Assembly (NCBI RefSeq): GCF_038025025.1
Contig: NW_027117350.1
Span: 496,001-560,000, forward strand
Direction of reading: 5' to 3'
DNA: 64,000 nucleotides
Source: Phyllosticta citribraziliensis
Taxonomy: Eukaryota
In this document: positions 41,330 to 48,661 of the stretch, piece after piece
Position numbering within the stretch: position 1 is the stretch's first letter
Layout of the letters: each line of letters begins with the position of its first letter
The notes under the pieces: model-generated
The model's input: the letters and a program-made list of their open reading frames with translations, nothing else
The model's database searches: none
What the model was told of the DNA's origin: nothing
Translations under genes and position numbers: made by a program

Positions 41330-43808
41330 ATGTCACTCCGCCCGCCTCGTCGAACGCGACAAAGTCGCCTCGACTTCACGCCGGTCCCGTCTTCGTCCCC
41401 GGCTGCTGCACAGCTGTCTCCCGACGCCCGCCACCGAGCTGCTTTGGTGGACTTTGACGAATCGCCACGCAAAAAGCAAAGGACGAGGCAAGGCCAAGAC
41501 CTGGCTGGAATAAGTATGTTTCCACATCACTCGCGCTTCGAATGACCGGATGGCCACATGGCTTTGGGCAAACGCAAGTTGCACGTGGCTGTGGGTCTAC
41601 AGTCTCCACAACGCTCAAGTTCCAAGAGACGAGGCTTTGCAGTCTTGGAATGCTTCGAGCCTTTTCGACTACCGTGCCAACACCATGCTCCTGCCCTCTA
41701 CAAATCGCTTTCATTAGCGGCGCATTGCTGATTTATGGAAATAGATAATTTTGGCCCGCTCACGCCCAGGTCCTCGCTTCCAAAAGGTTGGTCTGACTAG
41801 ACCGTCTTCCCCGCAATCGTCATGTGTGCTAACGTGATTTAGTCTTCGGGTCCACCACGAAAGCCAACTCAGGTCTCCCGATCCACTCAGATCAGGGCGA
41901 AGTCATCGATACCTCAGATAGCAGCGAAGACGAGCCTCTGCCTACGAGCCAGCGGCGAAGCAAGACCTTCTTCAACAGTAGCGCTCAAAAGACACAAAGC
42001 AGATTGAACCGGGCAGGACCTCAGAATAAAGCTTCTCCCTCGCAAGCTGCAGATGAGAGCTCTTCAGAAGATGAGATGCCGACATCAGCGGCTCGACGGC
42101 GCCAAACTCCTGCACAAAAGCAAGGCACGAGGATGGCACGAGCAAGGGCCCAGGGAAATTCGAATGGCTCACCGCGGTCGCAACGCCATCAACCGAGACT
42201 TTCACGGCTATCAAGAGGCTCCAAAAGCAAACCAATGGTCATATCAGATGACGAGGACCAAAGTGACGCTTCACCTCGTGCCGAGGCCGTAGATTATGAT
42301 CTTGGTGAAGCTGAGTCCAGTGGTGACGAGGTTATGGAGAGCTCACCTGGTATTCGTACAAGGAAAGGCAAAGGAAGAATGGCAGTCGAGGTCTACAGCG
42401 AAGAGGAAGAAAGCGAAGAAAGCCAACAGGCGCACAGGAGGCGGCTGCGTCGAGAACCCCAGGAAGCTTCGTCTTCAGAAACGGACGAGGATGACCCGCC
42501 AGCTAGCCGAAGGCGGCTGAGCAAGAGAAAGCACGCTGCTTCTGACAGCGAAGAGGAAGACGAGTCGAACAGGCACCGACGGAACCAGCAAGAACAGGAG
42601 GATCTTGAAGAAGATCTCGAGTTCCTTGGAACACCAACGAAAAAGGCGCGCTCCCGGAGAAGCCCTCCCCGGGAAAAGACTGCACGCGAGCTGGCCCTGG
42701 AGAGGCTCAAGCGCAGTCGCGCTGGCCAGAATGTTGATCCTGTTCAAGAGGAACAGCCGCAGCTGAGCAGAAGACGGGCGTTGTATGACACGGAATCAGA
42801 GTCGGAATCAGAAACGGTTCAAGAGTTGGACGACGAGGAAGAAGAAGATGACGGAGAGGACATTGATCAAAACGAAACCCGCCCTGCCATCTACCAGGCA
42901 TCGTCCATGGCAATGTTCCAGGAGGACGATGATGACCAGGACTTTCTCGTCGAAGACGAAGACGAACCCCTCGGAGTCCCGGACGAGGAAGTTAGTCTTC
43001 CTTTGCAATTCAGCAGCACCAGCCGCATGAAGGCCAAGGACCTATTCAAATATGCCGTCGAGTGGATGGTGCAAAAGAAGCTCAATCCGGCTTTCTCAAT
43101 GCAAGACGAGATCTACACTCTGACTTTCCACAAGCTCGATGATGAAGTCCGCGCCTTGTCCGGCTCAAAGTTCACGTCATCTGCGTGGACCAGGGATTTC
43201 CACCACGCGCTCCACGCTCGGCCTTTCATCGAGGTGACGGAAATCACGGGCATCAACAGGAGCCTCCTTTCCGCCCATTGCGGCGCGTGCAACAGGACCA
43301 ATCACCCTGCCACCTGGGACATTCGTTTCACGGGCAAACCGTATCATCGAGAGACTCTCGAGGAGATTGACGACGATGACGACGAAGAGGATGAGGAGGA
43401 CGACGACGACAAATCATACAACAGCCAGGGCCACACGATTCCCTCGGCCGATCACGTTTTCCACACGGGCGTCCACTGCAAGACCAATGCCCAGACAGCC
43501 CACGCTCTCGCGCATTGGCGCTACCACCTGAACGAGTGGGTCGTCGACTGGCTCAAGGTCGAAGGCCACGTCACGGCCGAGAAGATTGTCGAGCGCGACA
43601 ACATGTCGACAAAGCAGCGGAGGCGCTACGCCAACGACGTGGTCGACGACATGGCTGAAAGGGGCGAAATCAAGCTTCTCTACCATCACTTCCGGCTCGA
43701 GATTGACAGCGCGAGGAATGCCAAGGTTAGTGTCTGCGTGTTTGAGGCGTTTGATCGTCGTGCTAATACTGTGCGCAGCAAGCTGGATGGGGCAGGTACA
43801 ATCGCTGA
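41330..43808 (+). CDS. Conserved acidic nuclear-type protein with DUF4211-like C-terminal domain, 4 exons
   Basis: MSLRPPRRTRQSRLDFTP start, long D/E/R-rich region, then FKYAVEWMVQKKLNPAF, SKFTSSAW, CGACNRTNHPAT, HALAHWRYHLNEWV. Introns ~41514-41745, 41788-41841, 43726-43778. Confidence 0.8.
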
Positions 43809-44248
43809 GCTTGCGGTCATGATTTCACGACGAAGGGTCAGCGGGGATGGTGTTGGGGTCGTTTGGATTCTATTCTTCTATGCTTGGAAAGCCTCTCTTT
43901 TCGATGACGATCCGCTGGGTCTATGGAATCTCCCAGTCCAGCATCAAGCTGATGGACCTGGGAGAATGGGTTAATCTGCCTTTGAGTGAATGGCCAGCTC
44001 TTATGAAGCTGACGAGACTGCGAGATTTACGAGCTTGCTCGAAGAATTTTTAGATAGTCGGGCTATCTCCAGTCTTTTTGCGATGAATGGGGACCGTGAA
44101 AAGGACATGGTCCTAACTTGCGCCTGTTGCCTTTCTTCTTGCAGTCCTGGTTCAAAGCCTTTCTTCACCGACTGACATTTTGTCGAAAAAATGTGCGCCG
44201 TTCCCGAGATTCCCGGTCTTCCTTCATCGTGAACATGTCCCCGCTCAT

Positions 44249-44721
44249 TCACCTCGGCAGCCCGCTGCCCGCCCCAGCACTCGCCACGGCTGCTCCCCCT
44301 CCAGCAGCAGCCGCACCACCACCACCAGCAACAGCAGCCCTCTTCCTCGCCTCGCCGCCCCTCAAACTCGGTCCCACAGCCGCCGGCTCAGCGGGGCCCC
44401 TCGCGAGCAGGTCCTCGAGGCCCAAATCTCGCCAGGCGGGGTGGCGCTGCTTCTGGGTGGCGCGCTGGATGCCGAAGGCGGCGTGCTGGTCGGGGACGAC
44501 GTCGTCCTCGTCTTCCGGGTTGACGGGCTGGTGCTGCGGCTGCACGTAGATGTCTTCGGGGAGGAGTGGCGTGCGGGTGAAGTCTTCGAAGAGGTCGGCG
44601 TAGCGCGGCGCGGCGAGGTGGATGTAGGTGCGGGAGGAGTCGCGGGACTGCGCGTGGGTGGGTGTGTTAGTGGGGTTGGTTGGTGGGTGGGGTGTGTGTG
44701 TGGGGAGGGGCGGCGTACCAT
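44249..44721 (-). CDS. APC13: Anaphase-promoting complex subunit 13 (Apc13/Swm1); first exon is the ATG alone
   Basis: ATG|GTACGC intron (44718-44648) then SRDSSRTYIHLAAPRYADLFEDF...PEDIYVQPQHQPVNPEDEDDVVPDQHAAFGIQRATQ...PAWRDLGL, matching the Pezizomycotina Apc13 pattern as I recall it. Confidence 0.85.
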
Positions 44722-44838
44722 TGTGGAGGTATGTTTTGTTGATGTTGTTGGTGTTGTTGGGTTGGTGTTTGGTTTAATGAAGATGGATGGTGTTTGTTCT
44801 CGCTAGTGGTGGACGCGGTCGACGGAGTGGATGATAGA

Positions 44839-45018
44839 TCAATGGGCGTGCTGGCGACGGCCGAAGCAACTGCGCTTAGCAATGTCGTCCTTCCGCTTCT
44901 TGCGGTTGTCGAGGTATGCGCGCAGGCGCAGCTTGATGGCCCACGGCGGCTGCAATTGAATGAGCATGACGATCCAGATGTAGGCGCCAATGAGGCCGTT
45001 TCGGATGCTCAAGCCCAT
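44839..45018 (-). CDS. 59-aa small ORF with N-terminal hydrophobic helix and basic tail, directly upstream of APC13
   Basis: GCCGCCGCCATGG start context; MGLSIRNGLIGAYIWIVMLIQLQPPWAIKLRLRAYLDNRKKRKDDIAKRSCFGRRQHAH*; third positions mostly C/G as in neighbouring genes. Confidence 0.6.
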   Translation of the reverse strand: MGLSIRNGLIGAYIWIVMLIQLQPPWAIKLRLRAYLDNRKKRKDDIAKRSCFGRRQHAH

Positions 45019-45930
45019 GGCGGCGGCGGCGGCGGCGGACCAACAACGACAAAAGAAAAACAAAGCGGAGTTGGGCTTGTGAGATGAGCTGAGCTGAGCT
45101 GAGCTGCTGGGTAGGTGGGTTCTTGTATTATATGTACAGGCAGCAATTGAGCTAGTCTTGTGCTGGCTGTGTGCTGTGGATGCTGCGCGAGATACGTAAT
45201 ACTGGTCACAGCCACTGAGCGGCCGGTCGAAGCACAGGAGCGATAGCGCGAAGAAGACCTGTTTCCGAGGCGCAGCCTCGTGACGAAGACTCTTGTCTTG
45301 TACATGTACTTACGCGGCTGGGATACCCACGGCGAGCAGGCACGAACTGGCAGAGGCGGACCTGATCCGACGGCTAGACGGCAGGGCAGGCAGGCAGGCA
45401 GGCAGGCAGCAATTGCGAGTCCTCCCTGAGGGGCAGGCAGTTGATGGCGACGACGACGAGGCCGAGCCGACGCTATTATGACTCGGCGCAGGGTGGCTGT
45501 CGTCGTTTGGGCGACAAGCAAATGAGGCCAGCCACTGGACTCACCTGCGCTTGTGGCAGCCCCGACGGCCCTACTCGGATCCATCGGGTGCGTCGGAGGC
45601 GGAGGCGAGGCGGAGGCTGCGCGTTCGGTCTGCCGCGCCTGCCGTACCGCCGCGGAGAGCGGGCGCGCCAAGCCGCGGGCCGACCTCGCTTAGATTTTCG
45701 CACTGTGGATAGCGCGGGCGATTTCCCAAGGCCTGAGAGCGACTGACCGCGACTACGACAACCGAGACGACCCAACGACGGTACAGCCACCCCCCCGGAC
45801 GAGCTTCTTGCAGACTGTGAGGCGCGCCCTCTGTGTTTTTGCAGTCCTGCTCTTCTTGCGACGCCCAGGCTGACTGTTTTCCCCCCGTCGCTGCAGACTC
45901 CGCCGTCCTACGACACCCTCAACCGCAATC

Positions 45931-46351
45931 ATGGCCCACGAGAACCTCTACTTCTCCCGCCCCCGTACCTACGGCAAGGGCTCCCGCGGCTGGTACGTTT
46001 GACCGTCTCATCAAGGAAGCGAGGGGAGGACAAGGAAACGGCGTAGATGGGAAACACGACACATGGGGCGCGAGATGGAGAGCTGGATTTCAAGAGGCGT
46101 CTCGAACATTTGCTAACGGGGTTTCTCCAGCCGCGTCTGCACCCACAAGGCCGGTCTCATCCGCAAGTACGGCCTCAACATCTGCCGTCAGTGCTTCCGT
46201 GAGAAGTCCACCGACATTGGCTTCGTCAAGGTACGAATCACCCCTTCCACGTTGGACCTGCCAAACACGCGAGAGCCGAGCATCTGCGCATACGAATCAT
46301 GGAGAGGAAGCTATGAATGGACAACGCTGACGTCTGTCACAGCACCGGTAA
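45931..46351 (+). CDS. RPS29: 40S ribosomal protein S29 (uS14), 3 exons; absent from the ORF track
   Basis: Exons 45931-45992, 46131-46230, 46343-46351 give [56 protein letters not shown]. Confidence 0.97.
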
Positions 46352-47270
46352 ATTCGTCGTCGAAAAGGAGGGGAGTTCTTCAACCGAGGGTTTCTTTTTG
46401 GGCCGGTCATGAGCGGTCGAGGACTTTGAGACATACGCCAAATGCTATGCCGAGTGCATCTCTTCACAATGGAGCTTGCTTGACGACCTACGAGGTGACG
46501 CCGTGCCCGAGTGAGGTAGATGAACCAAAAGCTGAATCGGAACCTCGAATCTCGCTTGCCAGACAAGCATGAAGGATATTGGCTGTCTTCGTGTCCAAGT
46601 ATTCTGGGGGTGAAGCATTCAATGCGCCCAATTGAAGAGCTCAAGTCTTCATCCACCAAGCTTCCACAATTCGATTGCCGCAATAACATGCCACGAGCGC
46701 TTTTCTCGACCATCCACCGGCCTGTCTCAATCTGGGAAGCTTTGCAACCAAATCAATGGTCGAAAATCAAGCGAAAGAAACCAGAAATCCGATATAGCCG
46801 ACACCTTGCATCTCTGCCCCGGCATGCCTCTATTGATGTGAACCTCGCGTCTTCCACCTGCTGGCAGGCAGTATCTACACAACTCGCCATCCCATGAGCC
46901 CTGTAGATCATCTGCCTCAAGAACGCGCTCCTCGAAACACTAATCTAACATTGACGTAGACACTAACCCAAGGGCGCGACCAACTCTCTTACAAACCTTC
47001 CCTAGTATGCGGCTCATCTTCTTGAATGCTGTGTGGATACATTCGAGATCCATATTCGTGCTCATATCGTGGCAGACGTATGTACAAGCACTGCCCGCAG
47101 ACGGCTCTTATTTACACCCTTGGGACTACAGCTCCAAGGCACACTTTTTGCATCCCTTCCCCAGTAAGCCTTGCAAACAAAACGAGCCTAACCGTATGGC
47201 TGATCCATGAGCTCACAAGACAGCTGCGGTGTCGATAGTCCTTGTCACTCGCGCGGGACTTGGGCTTGCG

Positions 47271-48661
47271 TTATGCCGTGATCCAACCTTGCGTGCAAGG
47301 TTCGACCTGCCTGACGTACTTGGCAACACGATCCAACATCCACCCGGACACGTTTTCGACAGGCGCCGCCGACGACTCATTCGCACCAAGCTTGATGACA
47401 TTTCCAGTCTTGCAGCTGGCTGGGTTGTAGTGCCACTGCACGCAGTCGGCGCGCGACTGGCACGCCTGCCGACAGCTGTCCGGCCCGCCCTGGTACACGA
47501 CCACCTCCTCGTTGTCGCCCGAGAGGTTGTCCCAGTCCGACTTGGCTTGCACAAGCTGCGGCGCCACGACGTGATTGAAGACGTCGCGGTGGCGCAGGAT
47601 GGCCGATTTGCCCTGCTCGCAACACGCGTGGTGAGCATTCGCTTCGTTTGCGCTGATTGTTGGCAGCGTGTACTTACCGCCTGAGAAAACCAAATCTGCT
47701 CAAACTTCCACATGGCCCGCACCCAGTCGGGCGGCATGTGGTGATATGTGACGACGGGGTAGCATAGATGGCGCGAGGTGTAGTCGAGCGAAAAGGGCGT
47801 CTCCCCCTGCGTGATCGGCCACGTCTCCGTGAGGCCGATGCCAACGCTGTTGAACAGCTTCGCGAGGAGGCAGTCCCCAGCCGCCTCCGACGCCGTCTGC
47901 TCATCCCACCGCTCGCGCGACTTGGTGTACTCGTCGACCGCCATGCGCAGGGCCTTGCGCGAGACAATATACCCAGTGCCGCCATGCGCAAACTTGGTGT
48001 CGCCCATCCAATTCTGGCCGCCGATGTACAGCGGCTTTTCCGGGTCGAATTGCTCGAGCCAGCGCAACAGGTTGGACCAGACGAGGTACGTGTCAGCCTC
48101 GATGAAGACGAACCACTTCGCCTGCGGGCTGTGCGCCAGCGCCTTCTCCAGCAGCGGCAAAAACTTCCACTTGTCCAGATTCCACGCGCGGTCGCGGCCA
48201 GCCGTCGTCGCCACCAGGTCCGACACGTTCTGGCCCTCGGCGCGGTACTTGCGCTGCTTGTAGTAGAAGTGGAAGTCCTGGTTCGTCGCCTTGATGGGCT
48301 CCGAGAAGTTGGCCAGCGCGTCGTGGATCGCCACGTTGTTGATGCTCTCCTCCAGGTCCGAGTAGATGACGTAGTTGGGGATGCACCGGAACGTCGTGTC
48401 GAAGTGGACGGGCACCTTTTTTCGCGCTTCCGTCGCCCCCGTCTTCATGATGACGAGCACGTCTTTGCCTGCGCCGCGCGCGGCCGTTCCGGAGTGGCAT
48501 TCAACGTCGCGGTCCGTCGATTCGAGAAACAGTGATTCGCGCTGGACGCCATAGCGGCCGACGAGATGCGGAAACGCCAAATTGTAGAGAATGTAGACAA
48601 ACGACACAAGAGAAAGGCACACGAGAACCGTCGCGCCCCGCTGTTGTCGCTGCATAAGCAT
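47271..48661 (-). CDS. Glycosyltransferase family 31 (Fringe-like), type II membrane protein, 2 exons
   Basis: N-terminal TM anchor, VIMKTGATE, WNLDKWKFLP, WFVFIEADTY, FAHGGTGYIVS, AGDCLL, PVVTYHH, Cys-rich C-terminal module. Confidence 0.88.

What the first reader, a model, noticed from the sequence alone, without database searches (positions are those of the whole stretch)
44249..45135. Candidate dicistronic unit: 59-aa membrane microprotein directly upstream of APC13
Seen: on the minus strand a TATA-like TATAATA (~45126-45132) is followed by an ATG in ideal context (GCCGCCGCCATGG, 45018) opening a 59-codon ORF with gene-like C/G third positions, one hydrophobic helix (GLIGAYIWIVMLIQL), QPPW and a basic tail. 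Its stop (44839) is only 117 nt from the APC13 ATG (44721). The spacer is C/A-rich, AUG-free and apparently unstructured (CAACAACACCAACAACATCAACAAAAC). The ORFs are in frame but separated by two stops, so a readthrough fusion is unlikely. Inference: there is little room for a terminator plus promoter, so an APC/C subunit may be made by reinitiation or internal entry from a shared mRNA, coupled to an unannotated small membrane protein.
Basis: partly seen in the sequence, partly recalled or inferred. Interest (0 to 1): 0.72.

Follow-up and report, generated by a model that had tools for sequence, protein, structure and literature searches.

The report
Conserved small ORF upstream of APC13
In a group of plant-associated fungi, an overlooked 59-amino-acid gene sits just in front of the cell-division gene APC13, appears to have been kept for roughly 80 million years and probably shares its messenger RNA, but what the small protein does is untested.

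Summary
The window is a Phyllosticta (Botryosphaeriales). The 59-codon ORF (45018-44839) ends 117 nt before the APC13 ATG, which is a 3-nt first exon. The ORF is under protein-level selection. Homologues sit on the N-termini of public APC13 models from P. citricarpa, P. citriasiana, Diplodia, Botryosphaeria and Saccharata, joined at four different points. Two free 59-aa homologues (97%, 52%) also exist. A close relative shows 5 synonymous against 2 non-synonymous changes while the spacer diverges. Spliced RNA contigs from two studies carry the ORF and APC13 in one piece, and a third bridges the spacer. No ORF-to-APC13 splice was seen, and the in-frame relation is not conserved. Contigs cannot prove one transcript, its strand or its start. 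No homologue was found at 80 metagenomic fungal APC13 loci, none identified as Botryosphaeriales. 'Membrane' is weak: hydrophobicity is marginal and Botryosphaeriaceae carry Arg in the helix. Best reading: a lineage-restricted conserved upstream microprotein on a bicistronic mRNA, with APC13 made mainly by leaky scanning. Small APC/C subunits occur in bicistronic mRNAs in flies, plants and nematodes, always as the first ORF. This scan had not noted this locus before. Function is untested.

The parts
44839..45018 (-). Conserved 59-codon upstream ORF (microprotein); predicted helix 3-21, QPPW kink, helix 25-56; basic C-terminal half
   Evidence: ORF; homologues; RNA cover, 5 synonymous / 2 non-synonymous changes; model, pLDDT 67
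44722..44838 (-). 117-nt intercistronic spacer, C/A-rich, AUG-free, unstructured; contains ATTAAA (44778-44773); poorly conserved in sequence and length
   Evidence: (44771-44810 does not align in the X11 relative; spacer 143 nt there by record coordinates)
44719..44721 (-). APC13 start codon = whole coding part of exon 1, context CCACAATG (A at -3)
   Evidence: spliced joint 44647/44719 in X1 and X2, same context in X11 (tables 5 and 5c)
44648..44718 (-). APC13 intron, 71 nt, GT..AG
   Evidence: joint skips 71 (X1 depth 4550, X2 depth 258.5); intron-retaining contig at depth 55 in X1
44249..44647 (-). APC13 exon 2 (132 codons + stop); Apc13/Swm1 subunit of the APC/C
   Evidence: (PF05839 E 2.7e-28)
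45126..45132 (-). TATA-like element TATAATA, 45-68 nt upstream of the inferred contig ends; role inferred
   Evidence: 1 of 3 in window, chance-level count; for contig ends
45058..45081 (-). Zone where RNA contigs of three runs appear to end (X12 ~45058, X11 ~45060, X2 ~45081); weak hint of the main 5' end
   Evidence: inferred from record lengths table 8; this stretch was skipped as repeat in the laying and no DNA run was laid as control
45116..45481 (.). Further RNA cover upstream in the deepest run X1 (unspliced to ~45408, then a contig at depth 586); possible longer leader, strand unknown
   Evidence: X1 records 5 and 6; no cover 45520-45681
45931..46230 (+). RPS29 (first coding exons), divergent neighbour; defines the ~1.2 kb interval into which the small ORF fits
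   Evidence: sequence; gene name recalled from the translation; spliced joints

Best explanation
The ORF is a real, lineage-restricted microprotein gene that became the first cistron of the APC13 mRNA in an ancestor of Botryosphaeriales. A capped transcript starts about 40-70 nt upstream of its ATG, behind the TATA-like box, and runs through the spacer and the spliced APC13. Most ribosomes translate the 59-aa protein. A fraction scans past its AUG (G at -3) and the one internal in-frame AUG, crosses the AUG-free unstructured spacer and starts at the APC13 AUG (A at -3). The ORF therefore dampens APC13 output and also supplies a small helix-kink-helix, basic protein that acts in trans, most likely on a membrane surface or as a binding partner, with no necessary link to the APC/C. 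SHOWN: ORF, intron, conservation, position upstream of APC13 in five named species, RNA cover, contigs across both ORFs. INFERRED: single transcript and strand, start site, translation, leaky scanning, action in trans. Component odds: ORF under protein selection 0.92; substantial co-transcription 0.8; leaky scanning the main route if shared 0.65; integral membrane protein 0.35.
For: Protein-level conservation: 56% identity and 85% positives over 41 aa to the B. dothidea model (E 7e-17); 52% to free-standing P0141 of the same length (E 2.1e-9 in 1.84 billion proteins); P0141 against the Saccharata model 48% over 31 aa (pairwise E 9e-7). Family stem ages are 72-81 Mya (PMC9961722 Table 3). In run X11, 5 of 7 listed changes in the ORF are synonymous (hand assignment; binomial p about 0.01-0.04 by hand) while part of the spacer does not align. 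X2 record 22 and X11 record 8 each hold ORF + spacer + spliced APC13; X1 record 5 runs unbroken from the APC13 ATG exon through the ORF. X11 record 8 (1022 nt) matches the contig length and substitutions of P0001 (ORF) and P0125 (spliced APC13). Only one AUG lies between the two starts, in frame (M18), and it is Leu in Botryosphaeriaceae. Reinitiation-permissive uORFs are usually under 10 codons in yeast (PMC5972666, passage). Leaky scanning explains algal bicistrons (PMC11892635, abstract) and is extensive in Neurospora (PMC7049704, passages). Conservation peaks at residues 9-39 and the C-terminal 15 residues vary, which suits a folded product better than a stalling peptide (recalled rule).
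Against: Contigs do not show a single transcript, strand, start or level (tool caveat). X2 record 22 also runs more than 1 kb into the convergent neighbour, so contigs here do merge separate transcripts. In X1 the APC13 junction contig (depth 4550) is about twice as deep as the contig holding the ORF (2303), which allows a share of shorter APC13-only mRNA. The ORF's AUG has a purine at -3; in algal bicistrons ORF1 contexts are weak, and strong uAUGs repress in fungi. There is no ribosome-profiling or peptide evidence. Pfam, PDB sequence, Atlas and fold searches give no function. The Saccharata homologue is seen only as 29 residues. The position of P0141 relative to APC13 was not seen.
Confidence: 0.55

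Rival explanations
1. Two tightly packed genes, or alternative starts: the microprotein is real, but APC13 is made mainly from its own mRNA starting in the C/A-rich spacer. The long two-ORF RNA makes only the microprotein (an undecoded long isoform for APC13).
For: APC13 junction depth 4550 against 2303 for the ORF-bearing contig in X1. At other fungal loci only 340-560 nt separate the RPS29 and APC13 starts (24 of the 32 syntenic loci), so APC13 normally has a short leader. The ORF's AUG context is fairly strong. An ATTAAA lies in the spacer.
Against: By rough hand arithmetic, a main start in the spacer with only the ~600 background upstream would give a mean near 1100 for that contig; a start near 45080 would give about 2600; 2303 was seen (weak, as the tool warns against ranking parts by depth). 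X2 has one unbranched contig across both ORFs. X12 has the ORF and APC13 at similar depth (2.8, 2.6). No poly(A)-like loose end is listed in the spacer (4 rows of table 7 not shown).
Confidence: 0.2
2. Cis-acting conserved-peptide uORF: the nascent peptide stalls ribosomes conditionally (like the fungal arginine attenuator peptide, recalled) and so regulates APC13; the released peptide has no role.
For: It is always directly upstream of the same gene, with no homologue elsewhere. Length and stop position are roughly kept. QPxW and basic residues are conserved.
Against: The C-terminal residues next to the stop are the least conserved. 59 codons with gene-like GC3 (83%) and a predicted two-helix form look more like a small protein.
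Confidence: 0.12
3. The ORF is an alternative first coding exon that is spliced onto APC13 exon 2, giving an N-terminally extended, possibly membrane-tethered Apc13, as five public gene models have it.
For: Fused models P0005, P0126, P0010, P0137, P0020; the two Phyllosticta models share one junction, after residue 46. Many human uORFs can be read as new exons (10.1101/2024.03.22.586333, abstract).
Against: Four different junctions across the five models, one of which deletes the conserved Apc13 N-terminus (P0010). The same species also have canonical or other models (P0004, P0128, P0129, P0138). No such joint in 4 of 4 runs laid, although X1 kept an intron-retaining contig at about 1% depth. 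The base pair after codon 46 here is GC, not GT. The ORF keeps its own stop. A 3-nt first exon is an obvious cause of mis-prediction (inference).
Confidence: 0.06
4. Shared mRNA, but APC13 is made by reinitiation after the ORF or by internal entry on the unstructured C/A-rich spacer.
For: Unstructured, AUG-free spacer of 82-143 nt; reinitiation on yeast bicistrons has been reported (PMC11952965, search listing only).
Against: The ORF is far longer than typical reinitiation-permissive uORFs. The spacer sequence is not conserved, and its lack of structure is what its composition predicts.
Confidence: 0.05
5. The conservation is non-coding or belongs to the opposite strand (RNA structure, promoter, or an antisense ORF).
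For: RNA strand is unknown. A plus-strand 42-aa ORF (44831-44959) shares third codon positions with the ORF.
Against: That plus-strand ORF loses its first two ATGs in the X11 relative (3-nt deletion at 44830, T>C at 44883). No Rfam match. Folding z 0.38. Substitutions across families are conservative amino-acid swaps in the minus frame.
Confidence: 0.02

Closest known systems
Bicistronic mRNAs with a small APC/C subunit: Drosophila lmgA(Apc11)-lmgB (PMC3372440), plant CDC26-TTM3 (PMC7943633, citing Lorenzo-Orts 2019), nematode APC13-sam-4 (PMC4199485)
   Same: A small APC/C subunit shares an mRNA with an unrelated ORF across a short, variable spacer (92-165 nt in flies; 6-34 nt in nematodes); the arrangement is lineage-specific; in flies the partner has no homologues outside the family.
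   Different: In all three the APC/C subunit is the first ORF. Here Apc13 is the second ORF and so depends on bypassing an upstream AUG. The partner peptide is unrelated to those partners. Co-transcription here rests on contigs only.
Conserved-peptide uORFs / uORF-encoded microproteins (human SLC35A4-STREMI, PMC13303939; conserved translated yeast uORFs, 10.64898/2026.03.05.709866)
   Same: A 5'-leader ORF under protein-level purifying selection encodes a small hydrophobic and basic protein and can both act in trans and tune the main ORF.
   Different: No sequence or fold relation was found; translation, localisation and regulation are not shown here; conservation is limited to one fungal order as far as seen.
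Green-algal bicistronic loci translated by leaky scanning (PMC11892635)
   Same: Two ORFs on one mRNA, with few AUGs before ORF2.
   Different: ORF1 contexts there are weak; here ORF1 has G at -3 and one internal in-frame AUG.
Read-through polycistronic transcripts of Fusarium graminearum (10.1101/2021.11.08.467853)
   Same: Filamentous ascomycete mRNAs spanning two ORFs are common (914 transcripts, 321 loci).
   Different: Those span annotated genes of 100 aa or more that are also transcribed independently; a 59-aa ORF would have been missed by that rule; APC13 is not mentioned in that text.

Membership tests
Conserved-peptide uORF / uORF microprotein | AUG-initiated ORF wholly upstream of the main ORF, same strand | tested here: met
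   45018-44839, stop 117 nt before the APC13 ATG
Conserved-peptide uORF / uORF microprotein | Peptide conserved at the orthologous position, with purifying selection | tested here: met
   five named species, three families; 5 synonymous, 2 non-synonymous; small numbers
Conserved-peptide uORF / uORF microprotein | Lies within the same mature mRNA as the main ORF | tested here: inconclusive
   contigs of X2 and X11 hold both ORFs with the intron removed, X1 bridges the spacer; contigs do not prove one molecule or strand
Conserved-peptide uORF / uORF microprotein | Translated in vivo | not testable with these tools
   no ribosome profiling or proteomics available
Bicistronic mRNA (both proteins from one transcript) | Downstream protein made from the long mRNA; no dominant internal start or poly(A) site | tested here: inconclusive
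   no branch or listed loose end in the spacer; depth pattern leans to an upstream start but cannot exclude an internal one
Single-pass membrane microprotein | Conserved hydrophobic helix of about 19 or more residues | tested here: inconclusive
   helix 3-21 predicted; hand hydropathy about 1.4 here and about 0.9 in P0141, where Gly11 is Arg
Alternative first exon of APC13 (fusion isoform) | Spliced junction from the ORF to APC13 exon 2 in RNA | tested here: not met
   absent from 4 of 4 runs laid; contigs drop rare variants
Stop-codon readthrough fusion | Single stop and conserved frame between the ORFs | tested here: not met
   two stops; spacer 117 nt here, 143 nt in X11, 82 nt inferred from P0129: three different frames
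Known small APC/C subunits (Cdc26, Apc9, Apc15/Mnd2, Apc16) | Sequence match to the family profile or to solved chains | tested here: inconclusive
   no such Pfam or PDB match for the ORF or its alignment; short divergent subunits can be missed
Apc13/Swm1 (downstream gene) | PF05839 above gathering score | tested here: met
   98.4 bits, cut-off 22

The most novel reading that the evidence does not exclude
The microprotein is a lineage-specific APC/C accessory or pseudosubstrate inhibitor. It carries RxxL followed by D/E, a D-box-like core (consensus recalled), in all Phyllosticta and Botryosphaeriaceae copies. It is co-translated with Apc13 from one mRNA to fix their ratio. That would make this a eukaryotic operon of two functionally linked cell-cycle proteins, and the first case in which an APC/C subunit is the downstream cistron throttled by its own regulator.
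Probability: 0.07. Interest if true: 0.82.

Novelty: new member of a known kind. Interest (0 to 1): 0.53.

Why it matters
It adds an unannotated protein family and shows why APC13 is mis-annotated across Botryosphaeriales (five fused models, four junctions). It would be a further lineage, after flies, plants and nematodes, in which a small APC/C subunit ended up in a two-ORF mRNA, and the only one seen with the subunit second. That offers a compact test of how an APC/C subunit tolerates a good-context upstream AUG in a filamentous fungus. Because other fungi keep RPS29-APC13 synteny without the ORF, the locus also brackets the gain of a new gene inside a bidirectional promoter region. The kind of arrangement is known, and the function is untested.

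Tried and rejected
Searches that gave no function for the peptide: Pfam (only ANP, E 0.078, below cut-off); PDB sequences (CHD8 domain E 0.069, rejected as chance); ESM Atlas twice; Foldseek PDB, 0 matches; VIA-align wide, best Z 5.8, generic long helices only. P0142 (E 3.5e-6) is a tandem-repeat translation and was rejected. Metagenome scan with the peptide: 0 of 454 candidate stretches confirmed. Among 80 APC13 loci (best 80 of 172): exact QxQPxW pattern 0 of 80; two looser patterns hit 15 and 16 loci, none on the APC13 strand within 600 nt upstream of the match; upstream ORF lists of 16 of the 80 loci showed no look-alike by eye. None of these loci was identified as Botryosphaeriales, many have short flanks, and a divergent homologue elsewhere in those genomes is not excluded. 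A profile search of those records could not be run. An upstream coding exon from ATG 45584 with GTGAGT/GTAAGT donors was considered: X1 is unspliced over 44719-45408 and has no cover at 45520-45681. Rfam: 0 matches. The bacterial promoter scan is irrelevant to a fungus and was ignored. No complex prediction was sent: Apc13 alone is not a fair partner and no TPR subunit of this organism was at hand. Literature searches naming APC13 with uORF/fungi/Botryosphaeriales terms and microprotein terms with these taxa listed no paper on this locus. The library omits most subscription papers, and no supplements were opened.

Full report
Setting. The downstream gene is APC13 (PF05839, E 2.7e-28). Its closest named homologue is from Phyllosticta citrichinensis (96%), then P. 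citricarpa and P. capitalensis (89% over the core) and Botryosphaeriaceae, so the window is a Phyllosticta, order Botryosphaeriales. RPS29 (name recalled from its translation) starts at 45931 on the other strand.

1. The observation. Every stated feature is present: the 59-aa ORF at 45018-44839, its GCCGCCGCCATGG context, TATAATA at 45132-45126, the 117-nt AUG-free C/A-rich spacer, two in-frame stops and an ATTAAA. The spacer is unstructured, but only as its composition predicts (z -0.11). GC at codon positions 1/2/3 is 57/41/83% by hand. The APC13 ATG is a 3-nt coding exon followed by a 71-nt intron. The hydrophobic stretch is short: best 19-residue hydropathy about 1.4 by hand.

2. Conservation. 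The peptide alone found 1 homologue among 1 candidate in the 5.8-billion collection (P0001, 97%) and 2 hits among 1.84 billion representatives. One of these, P0141, is a free-standing 59-aa protein with 52% identity, E 2.1e-9; the other is a repeat artefact. The decisive evidence came from APC13 models. I read 74 of the 120 listed APC13 homologues (of 968 hits) and 14 cluster members. Three of the 74 and two of the 14 begin with this peptide: P. citricarpa P0005, Diplodia seriata P0010, Saccharata proteae P0020, P. citriasiana P0126, Botryosphaeria dothidea P0137. All are Botryosphaeriales. Most other models start at the true Met, so their lack of an extension says nothing. The window peptide matches P0137 at 56% identity and 85% positives over 41 aa (E 7e-17); P0141 matches the Saccharata stretch at 48% over 31 aa (E 9e-7). 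V17, Q21, Q23, P24, W26, I28 and R31 are invariant in 7 of 7 rows, and swaps are mostly I/L/V/M, K/R, D/E. A sixth model, P0129, reads the same DNA in another frame up to the stop, implying a one-codon insertion and an 82-nt spacer in P. citricarpa (inference, assuming the model is unspliced there). Phyllostictaceae and Botryosphaeriaceae split about 81 Mya and Saccharataceae has a stem age of about 72 Mya (PMC9961722, passages and Table 3). A profile search with all seven rows returned only P0001 and P0141 (2 of 14 candidates). Outside the order I found nothing: 0 of 454 metagenome candidates, 0 of 80 APC13 loci with the exact motif, no well-placed looser match, no look-alike in the upstream ORFs of 16 of the 80. 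In 32 of the 80 loci an RPS29 motif lies divergently upstream; in 24 of these the two genes are only about 340-560 nt apart, against 1284 here. So the ORF looks like a gain within a conserved divergent pair.

3. RNA. Of 12 runs listed I laid 4; all show spliced joints and are therefore RNA, kept as contigs. X2 record 22 is one contig across APC13 exon 2, the spliced junction, the spacer and the ORF, ending near 45081. X11 record 8 (1022 nt, a related species) starts about 42 nt before the ORF's ATG and holds ORF, spacer, spliced APC13 and about 250 nt of 3' sequence; its length and substitutions match the contig behind P0001 and P0125. X1 record 5 runs unspliced from 44719 to about 45408. X12 has separate pieces on the ORF and on APC13 at depths 2.8 and 2.6. 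Of 7 listed changes in the ORF in X11, 5 are synonymous (44932, 44926, 44917, 44893, 44851) and 2 are I46V and S50N; an eighth difference in that piece is not shown. Part of the spacer does not align and it is 143 nt long there. Against the reading: the tool states that contigs show no single transcript, strand, start or level; X2 record 22 also runs over 1 kb into the convergent neighbour; the contig ends fall in a stretch skipped as repeat and are inferred from lengths; no DNA run was laid as control; and in X1 the junction contig (4550) is twice as deep as the ORF-bearing contig (2303). Rough arithmetic fits a main start near 45080 better than one in the spacer, but this is a weak hint.

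4. Mechanism. Readthrough is out: two stops, and spacers of 117, 143 and 82 nt give three frames. Splicing of the ORF onto APC13 is unlikely: four different junctions in five models, conflicting models within one species, and no such joint in 4 of 4 runs, although X1 kept a 1% intron-retention contig. If the mRNA is shared, APC13 needs leaky scanning, reinitiation or internal entry. Reinitiation-permissive uORFs are usually under 10 codons in yeast and 30 in mammals (PMC5972666, passages). Leaky scanning accounts for algal bicistrons (PMC11892635, abstract) and is extensive in Neurospora, where context matters (PMC7049704, passages). Here the ORF has G at -3, APC13 and RPS29 have A at -3, and only one AUG (in-frame M18, Leu in Botryosphaeriaceae) lies between the starts. 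That fits leaky scanning, although a purine at -3 should leak little, which keeps the internal-start rival alive. The product is predicted as helix 3-21, a QPPW kink and helix 25-56 (pLDDT 67, pTM 0.27). Its conserved core is central and its C-terminus varies, which I read as a protein acting in trans and not a stalling peptide. Membrane insertion is doubtful because Gly11 is Arg in Botryosphaeriaceae (hydropathy about 0.9 by hand). No family, solved-sequence, Atlas or fold match gives a function.

5. Comparison with what is known. Small APC/C subunits lie in two-ORF mRNAs in Drosophila (Apc11/lmgA-lmgB; PMC3372440, passages), plants (CDC26-TTM3; PMC7943633, passages) and nematodes (APC13-like ORF before sam-4; PMC4199485, passages). 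In each the subunit is first; in the fly the second ORF was not detectably translated. uORF microproteins with dual roles are known (PMC13303939, abstract; 10.64898/2026.03.05.709866, abstract), and polycistronic transcripts are common in Fusarium (10.1101/2021.11.08.467853, passages). It works like a conserved uORF microprotein on a bicistronic mRNA. Membership is met on position and conservation, inconclusive on shared mRNA, untested on translation. Searches listed no paper on this locus; subscription papers and supplements were not seen. The scan's index had no look-alike.

6. Verdict. A real, unannotated, order-restricted microprotein ORF directly upstream of APC13, probably co-transcribed. 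New member of a known kind; interest 0.53. The boldest reading not excluded is an APC/C regulator co-translated with Apc13 (0.07).

Noticed in passing
window 45780-45896 (+): RPS29 has a 5'-leader intron with two alternative donors (skips of 116 and 80 nt to one acceptor), both abundant in X1 (23714, 25009) and X2 (1883, 2944).
   Followed up: partly
32 of 80 loci, e.g. L001 2041-2788; window 44647-45931: RPS29 and APC13 are head-to-head across many fungi; distance about 340-560 nt in 24 loci, 780-1070 nt in 8, and 1284 nt here.
   Followed up: partly
public APC13 models P0004, P0005, P0010, P0020, P0124, P0126, P0129, P0130, P0135, P0137: APC13's 3-nt first coding exon leads to frequent mis-annotation: intron read-through N-termini or fusion to the upstream ORF.
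   Followed up: yes
window ~42844-44249: RNA contigs of X1 and X2 run continuously from the APC13 3' region into the convergent DUF4211 gene (42076-43974, +), suggesting overlapping 3' ends.
   Followed up: no
window 45116-45518: Extra RNA cover upstream of the presumed start in X1, strand unknown; on the minus strand it would include a poor-context ATG at 45305 whose frame ends at 45009, overlapping the small ORF's start.
   Followed up: no
window 45018-44839; P0141, P0137, P0010: The peptide contains a short internal repeat: IRAYL occurs twice in Botryosphaeriaceae copies (GAYI and RAYL in the window's).
   Followed up: no
window 47213-48661 (-): Fringe-like glycosyltransferase-family ORF (PF02434, E 9.2e-8) beyond RPS29; ordinary.
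   Followed up: no
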